A stretch of DNA of 64,000 bases from Eledone cirrhosa (taxonomy: Eukaryota). The notes under the pieces are model-generated. The model ran no database searches. It worked only from the letters and a program-made list of their open reading frames with translations, and was not told where the DNA came from. Location: contig OZ024740.1 in NCBI GenBank assembly GCA_964016885.1, forward strand, positions 66,898,001 to 66,962,000, written 5' to 3'. Shown here in pieces: positions 2,380 to 64,000 of this stretch. A program made the translations under genes and the position numbers. Every line of letters begins with the position of its first letter. Within the stretch, counting starts at the first letter, position 1.

Positions 2380-2740
2380 TAGTAATAATAAGAAATTTGG
2401 AGACTAAAATCCAAAGAGGGCTCGATAAGGATAAACATATGTCAAATATATAAGAACCGTAGAGCAAATATTTATTAAAATAACAGATTAATGTTTAAGC
2501 AAAGTATCGCTGCTTTCACCCTTAACGGATCTTCTGAATCGGTTGAGCACTCTATTGACTTATATTCATCATGCAGAAACAACACCTGAATATTTCTACA
2601 AAGAACATACCCGTACCACGTGTTTTGAAATATTCACTTCTGCGTTCACAGATTGACTTTGTTAGTTTCAGAAGATCCCGTTAAGTGTGAAAGCAGCGAT
2701 TCTTTACTTAAACTTTAATCTGTTATTTTAATAAATAAAT
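2380..2740. repeat. Family A HHR-bearing repeat, inverted pair
   Basis: Part of 2380-2540 is the reverse complement of 2660-2740. The family recurs at about 10685-11250, 11452-11880, 14060-14350, 16560-16710, 24695-24900, 38855-38980, 40000-40100 and 61838-61910, always next to (TA)n. Confidence 0.85.
2664..2714 (+). ncRNA. Type I HHR variant with CAGAAGA core, family A
   Basis: Family consensus agttt-CAGAAGA-tccc gttaa gggt-GAAA-gca(loop)tgc-TT-aaact. This copy has two point changes. Other copies at 14283-14333 and 61840-61885. Confidence 0.6.
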
Positions 2741-2999
2741 ATATATATATATATATATATATAAATATTTTTTTATTTATTTAGTATCTTCTAATCTCAA
2801 TTTATTAACCAATTCTATAGCATTGGCCGAAAACGCAATACCAACTAAATATAGCAGTTGTTTTAGACTCTAGAATTTTTTTTATTATTTATTATATTTT
2901 TTATTACTTTTTACTATGCAATTTTATCAATTTTTATATATTTTTTATTTATTTATTATTGTTTACAAAATTGCAAACGAATCGAGTGTTATTACTATT

Positions 3000-3186
3000 C
3001 GGTGGATTTGCAGTATCGGTAGAGGGTCGGACCCCATGCTTTGATGCATAGAGTCATGGCCCTTTCCATTCCGAGTTCAAATCCCGCCGAGGTTATCTTT
3101 ACATTTCATCCTTATGGGGTCGATAAAATAAGGTACCAGTAATACACTGGAAAATTGCTAGTCTTGTGCCAAAAGTAGAAACAATT
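3000..3186 (+). mobile_element. tRNA-derived SINE
   Basis: A-box-like ggtggatt(g)gcagtatcggtag, B-box gagttcaaatccc, body tttcatcct.cggggtcgataaaataaagtaccagt and tail cttgtgccaaaagtagaaac. Multiple copies in the window. Confidence 0.8.
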
Positions 3187-3735
3187 ATTAATATTCGAAA
3201 AACTCAGATTACACATATTATATATATATATATATATAAGGAGAAAAAAAGTGAGTGAGAGAGAGAGAGAGAGAGAGAGGGAGATATACAGAGAGAGAGA
3301 GAGAGAGAGAGAGAGAGAGAGAGAGAGAGAGAGAGAGAGAGAGAGAGAGAGAGAGAAGAGAGAGAGAGAGAGAGAGATTTGTGGGCAGAGAATATTAGGT
3401 TTATTGGAAGTATATAATTCATGTGTGTTATATAATATTTACAGGTAGAGTTTTACGTAGTTTAGTCGAATCTCTTGAAAAATGAAGATATACTGCGATA
3501 TTAAGATTATAATAATATAATTCCCAATGTAAAGAATTGCGACCGAAACGTTCGTCTTTAACATAATCTATTTTAATTGCTACAGCTCTCTTTAATCTGG
3601 TGTAAACATATATACATATTTAAGAAAGAATTACCAGTCATTAAAGAAAGAATGAATTACCGTCCCCCAACCAACTTTAACAACACAAACGTTCCTCTAC
3701 TCCTGCTTAAATTACAAACCAATCGTATTATTATT

Positions 3736-3935
3736 GGTGGTGGATTGGCTGTTTCGGTAGAGGATCAGACGCCATGCTTTGTCGCATAGATTTACGGCTC
3801 TTTAACGAGGTTAACTTTGACTTTCATCATTACAGGGTCGATAAAATAAAGTACCAGTCTCGCACTGGGGTCGATTTACTCGACTTTCCCTTTCCCCAAA
3901 ATTGCTGACCTTGTTCCTATATGACAAACCATTAT
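3736..3935 (+). mobile_element. tRNA-derived SINE, same family
   Basis: Same body, gggtcgataaaataaagtaccagt...ctggggtcgattt. Confidence 0.75.
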
Positions 3936-60325: not shown

Positions 60326-60539
60326 ATATATATATATATATAGATCAGAGCAAACATCACGGACGCTCTATCTCAAAATTATTTTTGAAAAGCATTAGAA
60401 ATGCGCAACCGGTAAAACTTAAAACCAAAACGTAATACTAACCAATACCATTACTAATTCTCACTTATTCCTAATTAAACTATTTTTTACTGTGAACAAT
60501 TTATCAGCATTTTCTATTCCGTTTACCAATATATATATA

Positions 60540-61835
60540 TAAGAAAATGAGGGCTTTTTTTTAATGAAAAAAAGAACGAGATGTCCTACACGAGTGAATG
60601 TATAAGGAGGCAAAATGATGAAGTCAAAACTGAAACTGGAGTCGTTTTAAGAATATTTATGTGTTTCCTTTACCGGTTTCACAGTTCTATGATTTTCAAA
60701 AGTAGAATTGAGATAGAGGTTTTGTGGTTTTTCTCGCATCTAGTTGGTGTTCGAATGTTACTTCTGTCTTATGTGGAAAAAAGTGGCTCGAAATTCTCGG
60801 CCCAGATACTAACTGGCGTGAAATTTAATGTACTTATTCACGTGACAGTCCTAACCAATCAAATTACATTTATAATAAAAACAACATTGTTTAGCTACTT
60901 TTTCAAGTGCAACTGACAATTAAAAAACCTCAAACACGAACTGGCGCGAAAGTTGATGTGCTTATTCACGTGACTGCATCAACAACCAAATTTCACTTAT
61001 ATATAAAAGAACAATCTGAGCCCTCCCCCACTTCTACTTATACAATCTCCCCCCACACACACACAATCACACAAATAAAAATACATATCTCTACTTTCTT
61101 TATTTCAATAGAAAGTCTGATTTTTAACATCTCAGCACATCGGCTATACTCTCTAAACCAGAACAATTCTCCCCATCCCTTTTTTCTTGACTATTATCTT
61201 TTGTTTGGCACAACATTCTCTAAATGGCTACAAAAAAATTCCCAAATACGGGGGCGAAATTTAATGTACTTGTTCACGTGACTGTCATAATTTCATTTAT
61301 AACCAATCAAATTACATTTATAAAAAAATCCTTTTGAGCCACTTTTTTAAGTAAAAAGAAACTCAAACACAAACTGGCGCGAAAGTTGATGTGCATCACG
61401 TGACTGCATCAACCAACCAAATTTCACTCATATATGAAAAAACAATCTGAACCCCCCTCCTCACCCCTTTTTTTTAAAGGCCTATGATAAGAAATTTGTA
61501 ACGCGAACTGGTGCGAAATTTATTATACTTATTCACGTGACAGTCTTCAACCAACCAAATCACTTTTCTAAAAACCTAGCATTTCGAGGCACTTTTTCCA
61601 TATAAAACAGAAGTAACATCTGAACATCAACTAGATTCGAGAAAAACCACAAACCCTCCATCTCAGTTCTACTTTTGAAAAACAGAAGAACTGCGAAACC
61701 AGTAAAGGAACCAAATACATATTCTTAAAAAGATTCCAGATGCATTTTCGACTTCATCTTATTTCCTTATACTTTCACTCGTGTTGGACGTCTCGTTTAT
61801 TTTCATTTTGTAAAAAAAAACCTCATGTTCTAATA
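60540..61835 (+). mobile_element. Diverged family I terminal region with inverted 5' copy and internal subrepeats
   Basis: 60545-60790 is inverted relative to 61580-61835. Repeated aactggcgcgaaa...ttcacgtgac...ccaa units. 61070-61300 matches the reverse complement of 33135-33375. Confidence 0.8.
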
Positions 61836-61943
61836 TGATCAGAAGATCCCGTTAAGGGTGAAAGCAGCGATTCTTTGCTTAAACTTTAATCTGTTATTTT
61901 AATAAATATATATATATATATATATATATATATATATATATAT

Positions 61944-62109
61944 ATTGTTATACTTTGGGAGGGTCATGTTGCCAATAAGAAACACATGCACCAGTTGCAT
62001 CCGCTTCAATTTATTATAAATTAAATTTAATTTATAATAAATTGAAGTGAAAGCAACTGGTGCGTGTGTTTCTTATTGGCAACATGACCCTCCCAAAGTA
62101 TAACAATAT
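61944..62109. repeat. Palindrome ending in the family G-like terminus gaccctcccaaagtataacaata
   Basis: Arms of about 80 bp around aattaaatttaatt. Confidence 0.8.
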
Positions 62110-64000
62110 CGGTTTCAACATACGTTTTCAGATAAATAATTTTGCTAAACAAATTCATAAACGGAATATATATATATATATATATATAAGGGTTAAAATA
62201 CTGGAGCGTGTTGGAGTTAAACACTCTCTTCGTATTATAGAAATGACAGTAAAAGGTATAGCTCAATGTAGTTAAACAGAGCCGAAAAATTAAGAAAGTA
62301 AAACATACATATATATATATATATATGTATGTAAAAGGAAAACAGAAAAAACAACACAATCGGTACGGTATATGGAAGGTATATATTTGGTTAAAGCTTG
62401 ATATAGCAGGAAGAGGGTCCTAGAATTTCGGAGGCCAGACGTTCATCAGAAGAAAGAATGAAAAATAAAATAGATTGAGGGGACGGGTGGGATGGAATTG
62501 GAAAAAATGTATTTAGATAAAAATAACAGGTCCATTCATGTTGACATCTCTTGCAAAACTGTTGGTGCTGGGGTTTCGTGCATGATTTATTTTCTAGAAA
62601 AATGGATGATGGCGCATGTCTACCTGAAATGGAAAAAAAACGTTTTGTAAAAAGAGCTATACTTGACCACGTTCATAAAAATGAGTTTGTGTATGTGTGT
62701 GTGTGTGTGTTATTATAGGTCCGTACGAAGCTAAGAACAAATGTGTGTGTATATGTGAGTAAAGGAGTGCATGTGCATGTAAGTATGAACCTATGAGCGA
62801 AAGTATGTTAATATACGGAGGTGTATCGGCATGTATTAATAGTAAGAGAAGCTGCTAATGATAAAGAGAAAGCGATAGGAATCTAGGGTTGTTATAATGG
62901 GCGGGATATTAGAGAAATTGGGGAGGTGAGTTGAGTCCAAGAGGGGAATAGGACCCAAGACGGGGAATCAGACTTTGTTCAGTCCTGGTGCGCAAGGCCT
63001 GTGATCCATGATATAAAAGAACACCCAGGACTGAAACATGTAGGGAAGAATGACCAGGAGAACAGAAATGACGGGCGACAGGAGTATCCAAACGAGTTGT
63101 ATGTCCCTCAAATGTTCGGCAAAACGGTCCGCCATACGGCGTCCCGTTTGTCCGATATATAAAGACTCGCAAAGGAAACACCGGTGGGCTTAGGCAACGT
63201 CGGTGGATGTGCAGGTGAAAGAATGGCGGATACGGAAAGACCCATTAGGGTCTGTGAGAGTGGTGAGGGTGGAAAGAAAGGGACAAGTGTTGCAGCGGGA
63301 ACGGGAACAATGATGAGAGCCGGATGGAGTCGTGGGAGAGGCCGAAAAATAACTGCGAACCAGGAGGTCGCGGAAGTTTCGGGCGCGCTTAAAAGAAGTA
63401 GTGGGTGGGTTTGGAAAAAAGCGAGAAGTGACGGGGTCAGAAGAGAGAATACGGAAGGAACGGAGGATATGTCGCCGAAGTGGTAGGGTGATAGGGTGGT
63501 AGGTGAGAGGGAAAGGAACACGGGTGTTGGGAGGGCGGGGGTGAGGTGAGAGGGCTGTGCTGCAGTCTGTTTCACGGGCGTGGGTGAGAGTAGCTTGGAT
63601 AAAGGTGGGGGATACCCATGCTGGATGACGCAGGAAGCCATGCGAAGGGAATGGGTTTCGAAATCCTCATCCTGGCTACAGAGTCCACGAAAACGGACGA
63701 ATTGGGAATATGATATGGAGTGTTTGGTGTGGGTTGGATGGGAGGAGCTGAAGTCGAGATAAGATTGGGAGTCTGTTGGTTTAATGAAGATGGATGTAGA
63801 GAGGGTGCGGTGAGAGTGATTAATAGATAGAGAGATATCTAGAAAAGCGACAGAAGAATCAGAGACAGAGGCGGTGAAATTGAGAGCAGGATGGAAAGAT
63901 TGGACAAAAGAAAGAAAATAGTCGAGCTGTTCTCGTGATAGAGAGGTGGCGCCGATACAGTCGTCGATATAACGACAGTATAGCTCAGGAATATGTATAT
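62110..64000 (-). mobile_element. Decayed PLE (RT, thumb, GIY-YIG remnant, 3' UTR), runs off the window
   Basis: YCRYIDDCIG, VAFLDI, IKPTDSQSYLDFSSSHP...YSQF and PVARHF...LGSYSPLGLN. HHR-like CTGATGA...GAAA on the minus strand at about 62418-62453. Confidence 0.88.

What the first reader, a model, noticed from the sequence alone, without database searches (positions are those of the whole stretch)
2380..62453. At least ten distinct hammerhead-ribozyme repeat families, nearly all in (TA)n microsatellites, within one gene locus
Seen: type I HHR folds (stem I-core-stem II-GAAA-short or palindromic stem III-UH-stem I) at 2664, 9751/10061/10434, 20348/20831, 25686, 31152, 33641/35590/32828, 41290, 58230/58965 and 60057/60168, with partial cores at 16245, 40275, 56421 and about 62430. 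The sequence contexts are otherwise unrelated. Almost every carrier is bounded by (TA)n and several are followed by AATAAA. Known: PLE terminal repeats and non-autonomous retrozymes carry type I HHRs. Inference: this is a TA-targeting PLE/retrozyme ecosystem of coding elements plus many non-coding dependants, at roughly one HHR per 2-3 kb. I cannot confirm whether it has been described in this lineage.
Basis: partly seen in the sequence, partly recalled or inferred. Interest (0 to 1): 0.9.

Follow-up and report, generated by a model that had tools for sequence, protein, structure and literature searches.

The report
Genome-wide swarm of octopod hammerhead retroelements
The introns of this octopod gene hold 43 copies of hammerhead-ribozyme motifs from 15 mobile-element families, a sample of at least 155,000 in the genome, and the non-coding families carry the insertion fingerprint of Penelope-like retrotransposons, which likely copy them.

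Summary
With decayed copies there are 43 from 15 families, all in introns of an octopod SLC6 gene. It is not locus-specific: 97 other 10-kb stretches give 1.05 folds per 10 kb (about 315,000 genome-wide), and one core pattern alone matches 160,652 times (control 5,575). Stems covary (8 of 12 pairs). (TA)n lies 3' of carriers only. Nine families are 3' ends of coding, mostly truncated Penelope-like elements (PLEs; Hydra- and Neptune-like); four are ORF-less tandem retrozymes of 310-524 bp. New points: the retrozymes show the PLE-specific 'tail' (two fixed 3' ends, one on each arm of inverted inserts), genomic evidence that PLE enzymes mobilise them; a very abundant family has a fixed U4A core; the count exceeds any I found in print. 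PLE HHRs, retrozymes and TA targeting are known. Cleavage and expression are untested (no RNA run). The scan noted a similar tRNA-bearing element in another genome, not this.

The parts
1..2372 (-). 5'-truncated copy of a young Hydra-like PLE (H1): RT plus GIY-YIG ORF ending at 633, then 3' UTR; HHR core CUGAAGA at 19-25, the rest lies left of the window
   Evidence: 104 scored copies, 93-100% aa identity, many 781-aa open frames; RWK, DKT, CxCX5C motifs
2664..2714 (+). F1 HHR copy, core CAGAAGA (U4A), mutated stems; inverted arm at about 2380-2530; 9 F1 copies in the window (G12 at 2517, 2689, 10822, 11585, 14308, 16602, 24764, 40054, 61860). 3' end of a Hydra-like PLE
   Evidence: (17,699 exact 34-mers)
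9283..9430 (+). F14 half HHR (3' half only); second insertion at about 27295-27470; full U3-A8 fold seen in L060; unassigned
9618..10635 (.). F2 retrozyme, 310-bp unit: 2.16 units on minus plus 1.23 units on plus; canonical HHRs 9751-9793(-), 10061-10103(-), 10434-10476(+); 3' ends 139 and 165 nt past the cut site
15585..16530 (+). 3' end of a PLE (CX4CXXC linker, GIY-YIG) with F10 HHR at 16245 (weak stem I); further F10 copies at 25125(-) and 49281(-)
20271..21027 (-). F3 retrozyme, 484-bp unit, 1.56 units; HHRs 20348-20430 and 20831-20914 with about 50-nt stem II region
22170..23985 (+). Decayed Neptune-like PLE with decayed F16 U3-A8 HHR (G12 at 23935)
25611..25782 (.). F4 HHR-like copy 25686-25782(+) with long loop 2 and a truncated inverted arm; one relative lies 259 nt behind a Hydra-like EN
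30983..32645 (-). F5 retrozyme, 524-bp unit, about 3 units; HHRs 31152-31233 (mutated) and 31678-31756; second decayed inverted insertion at about 44795-45460
32680..35700 (.). Internally deleted Neptune-like PLE: inverted and direct terminal repeats with F6 U3-A8 HHRs at 32828-32865(-), 33641-33678(+), 35590-35627(+), around a 5' ORF fragment (about 33850-35330, KGLKF motif); decayed F6 copies at 60680(-), 61695(+)
40140..40340 (.). F11 inverted pair truncated at the core (G12 at 40257(-) and 40294(+)); 3' end of a PLE
41290..41399 (+). F7 HHR, core CCGAAGA (U4C), about 80-nt stem II region; 3' end of a Hydra-like PLE
   Evidence: (4 of 24 copies with EN about 1 kb upstream)
49030..50746 (-). 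Decayed PLE (RT, CX4CXXC linker, GIY-YIG) ending in an F10 HHR at 49281
56357..56560 (.). F12 short inverted pair (G12 at 56394(-) and 56440(+)), decayed; unassigned
58012..59301 (.). F8 retrozyme, 469-bp unit: 1.55 units on minus plus 1.20 units on plus; canonical HHRs 58230-58274(-), 58702-58740(-), 58965-59009(+); 3' ends 225 and 299 nt past the cut site
59935..60322 (.). F9 inverted pair, HHRs 60057-60095(-) and 60168-60206(+); 3' end of a Neptune-like PLE
   Evidence: 375-408 nt behind the EN in 7 arms
62320..64000 (-). Decayed Neptune-like PLE (EN 62974-63402) with decayed F13 HHR at about 62420-62453
5339..45984 (+). Host gene: five exons of an SLC6 glycine-transporter-like gene (5339-5611, 19250-19483, 36802-36915, 43880-44020, 45880-45984); the next exon lies 4.8 kb right of the window, so the later elements are intronic too
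   Evidence: (88% to Octopus bimaculoides)

Best explanation
These are hammerhead-ribozyme motifs carried by many retroelement families that insert at (TA)n throughout an octopod genome: most are the 3' ends of truncated Penelope-like elements (PLEs), and four are short non-coding tandem retrozymes that are likely copied by PLE enzymes. Likely mechanism (inferred from genomic junctions plus Frangieh 2024): the PLE RT-endonuclease nicks both strands of a (TA)n run and primes reverse transcription at two fixed sites 20-300 nt downstream of the HHR, one site per strand, probably on the same RNA. The two cDNAs join head to head, giving inverted inserts with one long and one short arm. Early termination leaves only the HHR-bearing end, which is why solo HHRs abound. 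In retrozymes the canonical HHR would cut multimeric transcripts into unit RNAs that circularise, and rolling reverse transcription would give arrays of variable length. In PLE ends with weakened cores (U4A, U4C, U at position 17) cleavage is predicted to be slow, protein-assisted or dispensable.
For: Shown: folds far above shuffles in the window and in 97 stretches not used to build the descriptor (102 against 0-4). 160,652 core-pattern matches against 5,575 control. Compensatory changes at 8 of 12 pairs, 0/500 shuffles for cells paired and covariation score, slid controls at most 0.14 against 0.56. (TA)n excess 3' only. GIY-YIG upstream at a family-fixed distance for F1, F6, F7, F9, F10, F11, F16, and at single loci for F4 and F13. 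F2, F3, F5, F8 are head-to-tail units with no long ORF (longest 51-84 aa) and no EN link (F3 1 of 22 copies, F5 0 of 45); F8 copies are 98-99% identical on many contigs, in arrays of up to about 14 units. Two fixed 3' ends per family: F8 225-230/299, F5 60/178, F2 139/165, F3 82/191, H1 57/165. Inverted pairs are long+short in F8 9 of 11, F5 7 of 8, F14 13 of 14 (by eye 13 of 16 for F8). Frangieh 2024 (PMC11167929): two internal RT start sites make the 'tail' unique to PLEs, both strands are cut and extended, and HHR cleavage is not needed for insertion. Intact young PLE ORFs exist in this genome.
Against: No cleavage, expression or circle was shown. No autonomous partner was identified for any retrozyme; none shares sequence with the EN-bearing loci I held. 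Tandem arrays could also grow by unequal crossover. F8 and F5 loci were the best BLAST hits (for F5 biased towards long arms), so only F14 is an unbiased long/short test; F1 pairs were mixed (2 of 6 long+short) and F6 uninformative. Frangieh found no strand difference in start-site use in vitro. Single HHR monomers do not fold better than shuffles except F8 (z -2.5). The youngest PLE (H1) has cores, stem II and a palindromic stem III but no stem I beside the core. The further-pair-types measure was not above shuffles (366/500), and related sequences can beat the shuffle control.
Confidence: 0.83

Rival explanations
1. There are no independent retrozymes: F2, F3, F5 and F8 are PLE terminal repeats that lost their ORF once and were then multiplied at DNA level (unequal crossover, segmental copying).
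For: Li 2026 proposes this birth route. Long arrays exist (listing).
Against: Dozens of dispersed 98-99% identical loci, each with its own 5' junction, fresh (TA)n flanks and the two fixed 3' ends. DNA-level copying would carry flanks along and not regenerate these ends.
Confidence: 0.07
2. The retrozymes are mobile but use a LINE (RTE, CR1, R4) or another enzyme rather than a PLE.
For: LINE fragments are present (12178-12480, 51400-53800, family assignment recalled). No PLE partner was identified.
Against: Two internal start sites and long/short inverted arms are described as unique to PLEs (PMC11167929, PMC8557442), and the same pattern holds for coding PLEs here (H1, F9). No poly(A) or simple-repeat tail belongs to the units.
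Confidence: 0.04
3. The cluster is host-selected: intronic HHRs regulate the SLC6 pre-mRNA.
For: Density is about twice the genome mean. Six intact folds lie on the sense strand.
Against: All copies belong to dispersed young repeat families, and most are decayed (28 of 43). All four tandem arrays, the forms able to cut as dimers, are antisense (4 of 4, not significant).
Confidence: 0.04
4. The folds are chance matches in AT-rich, palindrome-rich DNA.
For: The descriptor was relaxed after seeing the window. No Rfam HHR reaches gathering score.
Against: 50- to 60-fold excess over shuffles in the window and in held-out stretches, 29-fold over the reversed pattern genome-wide, and covariation.
Confidence: 0.01

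Closest known systems
Type I HHRs in PLE terminal repeats (Cervera & de la Pena 2014, PMC4209133)
   Same: HHR in the pLTR, many dissimilar families per genome, mostly solo copies from truncated PLEs, close inverted pairs, palindromic stem III, U3-A8 core variant, bulge at the base of stem II.
   Different: Counts there are 2,000-9,000 minimal HHRs per genome; here at least 155,000. Fixed U4A and U4C cores and 30-90 nt stem II regions are common here and are not described in the parts I read.
Non-LTR retrozymes of animals (Cervera & de la Pena 2020, PMC7229834; Li et al. 2026, bioRxiv 10.64898/2026.07.22.740005)
   Same: ORF-less tandem units with one type I HHR each, low GC, structured as circles (F8 -157 against -93 kcal/mol for shuffles), U-U at the base of stem II in some.
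   Different: Units of 310-524 bp inserted at (TA)n with PLE-type inverted arms and two fixed 3' ends. 'Inverted', 'tail' and 'microsatellite' do not occur in the 2020 text; Li 2026 argues PLE origin from phylogeny and co-occurrence. Circular RNA not shown here.
Hydra and Neptune PLE clades (Craig et al. 2021, PMC8557442)
   Same: H1 has RWK, DKT and CxCX5C; F6, F9, F16 parents have the CX4CXXC linker; (TA)n targets; tail at one end; inverted 5'-truncated copy.
   Different: Tails of 26-165 nt rather than 30-40. H1's HHR is not canonical. Octopus rows shown from supplementary file S1 were Naiads (2 of 4 rows seen). No tree was built.
Poseidon of Anolis (Frangieh et al. 2024, PMC11167929)
   Same: Two internal RT start sites downstream of the HHR; AT-rich target; both strands extended.
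   Different: Here the two sites appear coupled, one per arm, and are also seen in non-coding elements.

Membership tests
Type I hammerhead ribozyme | Core CUGANGA...GAAA...UH in a three-way junction, stem I open | tested here: met
   11 canonical, 3 U3-A8 and 1 C4 folds in the window; F1 deviates (A4; 47 exact U4 copies with stem I against 17,699 for the open pattern)
Type I hammerhead ribozyme | Covarying stems I and II | tested here: met
   8 of 12 pairs with two-sided changes in the F2/F8 clade, 14 sequences. F5 relatives show paired changes by eye; their alignment was spoiled by one wrong row and not scored. Other families not scored.
Type I hammerhead ribozyme | Self-cleavage at the predicted site | not testable with these tools
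   needs in vitro transcription or cyclic-phosphate RNA-seq
PLE terminal repeat (F1, F4, F6, F7, F9, F10, F11, F13, F16) | HHR lies 3' of an RT/GIY-YIG ORF, same strand, fixed distance | tested here: met
   one locus only for F4 and F13
PLE terminal repeat | Tail at one end and inverted truncated copy | tested here: met
   H1 57/165; F9 pairs; F1 22-26/112-115 and F6 76/141
Hydra clade (H1) | RWK, DKT, CxCX5C linker, (TA)n target | tested here: met
   protein of L069/L070 read against Craig 2021 section 11
Hydra clade (H1) | Canonical HHR | tested here: not met
   no stem I beside the core; the 3' strand pairs with loop 2 instead. I call it Hydra-like.
Hydra or Neptune clade | Placement in an RT phylogeny | not tested
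   no reference set fetched
Non-LTR retrozyme (F2, F3, F5, F8) | ORF-less head-to-tail units, one type I HHR per unit | tested here: met
Non-LTR retrozyme (F2, F3, F5, F8) | Expressed as unit-length circular RNA | not testable with these tools
   no RNA holder listed
PLE end or retrozyme (F12, F14) | EN link or tandem unit | tested here: inconclusive
   mostly short inverted pairs; EN distances scattered

The most novel reading that the evidence does not exclude
This octopod genome holds about 300,000 intact hammerhead folds from at least 32-45 families, more than any count I found in print and about 25 times the axolotl density. Its ORF-less retrozymes carry the PLE-only two-start-site fingerprint with one site used on each arm, which would be direct evidence that a PLE enzyme twin-primes a single (circular) retrozyme RNA. 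One of the most abundant PLE families spread with a U4A core, so the hammerhead fold there may be kept for something other than fast cleavage.
Probability: 0.45. Interest if true: 0.72.

Novelty: new variant of a known kind. Interest (0 to 1): 0.55.

Why it matters
Which enzyme mobilises animal retrozymes, and what PLE hammerheads are for, are open questions (PLEs are called 'strong candidates' in PMC7229834; the HHR is dispensable in vitro in PMC11167929). Here young retrozymes (98-99% identical), mapped priming sites and intact PLE ORFs sit in one genome, so the existing in vitro assay can test the pairing directly. Natural U4A, U4C and long-loop variants give a ready panel for HHR biochemistry and show what Rfam misses (no hit at gathering score). 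About one fold per 10 kb, many intronic, also raises the question of pre-mRNA cleavage in cephalopods, whose repeat annotation (PMC13282606, parts read) does not mention ribozymes.

Tried and rejected
A strict first descriptor found only F8 and one F5 copy, because it required a 10.1-11.1 pair and a short loop 2. A mis-spaced F6 pattern gave 2 hits and says nothing on F6 abundance. RNA evidence: no RNA holder listed. Contigs of four runs of unrecorded kind laid on F8: two gave contigs of 499 and 497 nt (about one unit plus 30), which fits a circle or a tandem array equally; not used as evidence. Monomer folding z-scores were uninformative (the 2676 stretch was mis-cut). The F5 alignment included a wrong row and was not scored. 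Candidates at 8700-8770 and 46600 had no relatives in the sample and were not pursued. I considered RNA dimerisation through the palindromic stem III as the cause of inverted inserts; the long+short pairing is explained more simply by one RNA, so I rank it low. A 'record density' claim is not secured: descriptors differ between papers, and Schistosoma satellite HHR copy numbers (recalled as very high) were not found in the texts searched. Score cut-off 17 was set; it drops 11 weak hits in one satellite stretch (L054) and five other low scores there. Strand bias of intronic HHRs could not be tested beyond this gene.
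Full report
SETTING. The window is AT-rich animal DNA (G000:C1:66,898,001-66,962,000; genome 3.0 Gb). An exon matches the SNF family and is 88% identical to an Octopus bimaculoides glycine-transporter-like protein, against at most 67% to other molluscs, so the host is probably an octopod. 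Five exons map in the window and the next lies 4.8 kb beyond it; upstream exons were not found in the 10 kb to the left. Everything discussed from 5.6 kb on is intronic, and probably the start of the window too.

OBSERVATION. Rfam has no HHR at gathering score and three sub-threshold HH9 hits at F8. My relaxed descriptor, adjusted after reading the window, gives 15 folds against a shuffle mean of 0.27; a bare core pattern gives 11 against 0.89. 2664, 25686 and 31152 are mutated copies, and the four partial cores are decayed members of dispersed families. Family probes give 43 copies of 15 families.

GENOME-WIDE. I fetched 97 stretches of 10 kb at round coordinates on 20 large contigs (the two stretches flanking the window excluded; small contigs not sampled). 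They hold 102 folds at score 17 or more: 1.05 per 10 kb (bootstrap 0.76-1.39), about 315,000 per genome (229,000-417,000), with 0-4 in 8 shuffles; 48 stretches have none. They form 32 to 45 clusters at 70-90% identity, many singletons, so more families exist. Independently, CTGANGA-N12-18-GAAA-NNNN-TH matches 160,652 times against 5,575 for the reversed pattern; this counts cores, not stems, and omits U3-A8, A4 and long-loop families. The window is 2.3 per 10 kb (P about 0.03). The largest figure I found in print is 126,247 in axolotl (PMC7229834, passages; genome 28 Gb per Li 2026); others are 2,000-9,000 minimal HHRs (PMC4209133, parts 1-2), about 5,000 in mussel, and 235 Rfam hits in giant squid (PMC6962438, passage). 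Descriptors differ, so this is indicative.

STRUCTURE. Fourteen distinct motifs of the F2/F8 clade keep 96% of cells paired with two-sided changes at 8 of 12 pairs (0/500 shuffles for cells paired and covariation score; further pair types 366/500; slid controls fall to about 45%). In the 102 folds, stem III is at least 80% self-complementary in 73, position 17 is A in 61, U in 33 and C in 8, and the stem II region runs from 12 to 88 nt. U3-A8 in PLEs (PMC4209133) and U4C and U10.1-U11.1 (PMC3088659, section 8 and passages) are known. 'U4A' does not occur in PMC3088659 and one search found no HHR paper with it; figures were not visible to me. F1 has A4 in 96 of the first 100 of 17,699 exact matches; two of the four T4 cases sit where opposite-strand copies overlap, and only 47 exact U4 copies keep stem I. 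F7 has C4 in most copies.

TWO CLASSES OF CARRIER. A GIY-YIG domain lies upstream on the same strand at a steady distance for F1 (about 955 nt), F6 (about 1,010), F7 (about 1,000; 4 of 24 copies), F9 (375-408), F10 (about 250), F11, F16 (about 410), and at one locus each for F4 and F13. The parents have CxCX5C (F1, F4, F7; Hydra-like) or CX4CXXC linkers (F6, F9, F16; Neptune-like). The PLE at 1-2372 belongs to a young Hydra-like family with many intact 781-aa frames. F2 (310 bp), F3 (484), F5 (524) and F8 (469) are instead head-to-tail units with no long ORF: an arm exceeds one unit in 23 of 23 F5 and 12 of 19 F3 loci (best BLAST hits, so biased to long copies), and F8 forms arrays of about 14 units. 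F12 and F14 are short inverted pairs of unknown parentage; F14 inversion centres fall 9-22 nt 5' of G12 in 30 of 36 arms, so most copies lack the first core half.

INSERTION SIGNATURE. (TA)6 or longer lies within 300 nt downstream of 79% of 82 folds (29% at random positions in the same loci) and upstream of 28%. Each family has two fixed 3' ends: F8 225-230 and 299, F5 60 and 178 (30 of 32 ends abut TA), F2 139 and 165, F3 82 and 191 (the latter twice only), H1 57 and 165. In head-to-head inserts the arms use one end each: F8 9 of 11, F5 7 of 8, F14 13 of 14, F9 2 of 4, F1 2 of 6, F6 0 of 2 classified (internal TA runs blur F1, F6, F9). Two RNAs choosing independently would give at most half. 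Craig 2021 (PMC8557442; passages, section 11, supplement search) describes the tail at one end, the inverted copy and (TA)n bias for PLEs, and non-autonomous Chlamys derivatives. Frangieh 2024 (PMC11167929, parts 1-3) ties the tail to two internal RT start sites, calls it unique to PLEs, and finds HHR cleavage protein-assisted and unnecessary for insertion. All intact inserts read across the cut site, so the template was uncut or re-ligated (inference).

MECHANISM. Shown: folds, covariation, family membership, 3'-polar TA targeting, two ends, long/short pairing. Inferred: PLE enzymes do the copying; one RNA is primed twice; retrozyme HHRs make unit circles. Untested: cleavage, expression, partner. 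No RNA run was listed.

PRIOR WORK AND NOVELTY. Searches found no paper on HHRs or retrozymes in octopods beyond the squid Rfam count and Naiad rows marked 'HHR_half_core', and none reporting PLE tails on retrozymes. Li 2026 (parts 1-3 of 5; supplements closed) covers 31 vertebrates, 3 insects and a coral, and argues from homology and co-occurrence. PMC13282606 (parts 1-2) lists 31 recently active Penelope-like families in O. vulgaris without ribozymes. PMC7761336 and PMC6155905 were seen as passages. Subscription papers, Repbase/Dfam and Lunse et al. 2017 on dimeric PLE HHRs (recalled) were not seen and may cover some variants.

VERDICT. Real, and a known kind of system at unusual scale, with variant cores and a useful mechanistic fingerprint. 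Not a property of this gene. Interest 0.55.

Noticed in passing
window 45480-45785: TA-flanked inverted element with a tRNA-Ser-like module at 45606-45679; dispersed at 96-98% identity, with inverted arms and two 3' ends about 13 nt apart, i.e. PLE-type insertion without a hammerhead.
   Followed up: partly
window 1-25(-) and L003/L069: The young H1 PLE keeps both HHR cores, stem II and a palindromic stem III, but the strand 3' of the cut site is complementary to 8 nt of loop 2 and not to the bases before the core. A possible splice donor lies in that loop and an acceptor just before the ORF (read by eye).
   Followed up: partly
window 9618-10286, 20271-21027, 30983-32645, 58012-58740: All four tandem retrozyme arrays are antisense to the SLC6 gene; only single copies are sense. 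Possible selection against cis-cleaving dimers in pre-mRNA; n=4, not significant.
   Followed up: no
F14 and F12 copies in L004-L191: Inversion centres cluster within about 25 nt 5' of the GAAA box (F14 30 of 36 arms at 9-22 nt; F12 15 of 17 at 19-27 nt), suggesting the HHR hairpins serve as joining points of the two cDNAs, or that the RNA starts there.
   Followed up: partly
window 3000-3170, 3740-3930, 5680-6100, 7930-8100, 16720-16880, 47750-47940: Many copies of a short interspersed repeat resembling octopus SINEs (name recalled, not tested).
   Followed up: no
window 51400-53870(-) and 12178-12480(+): Decayed non-LTR retrotransposon fragments (RTE/R4-like, recalled); no Pfam hit.
   Followed up: no
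window 8695-8775 and 61980-62075: Short perfect-looking palindromes; the first contains CCGATGA, possibly a truncated HHR pair, with no relative in the sample; the second matches the tail of the abundant GGTCACAG HHR family.
   Followed up: partly
G000 contigs C1-C4: Four scaffolds of 379-443 Mb beside many of 30-135 Mb: large fused chromosomes or scaffolding joins.
   Followed up: no
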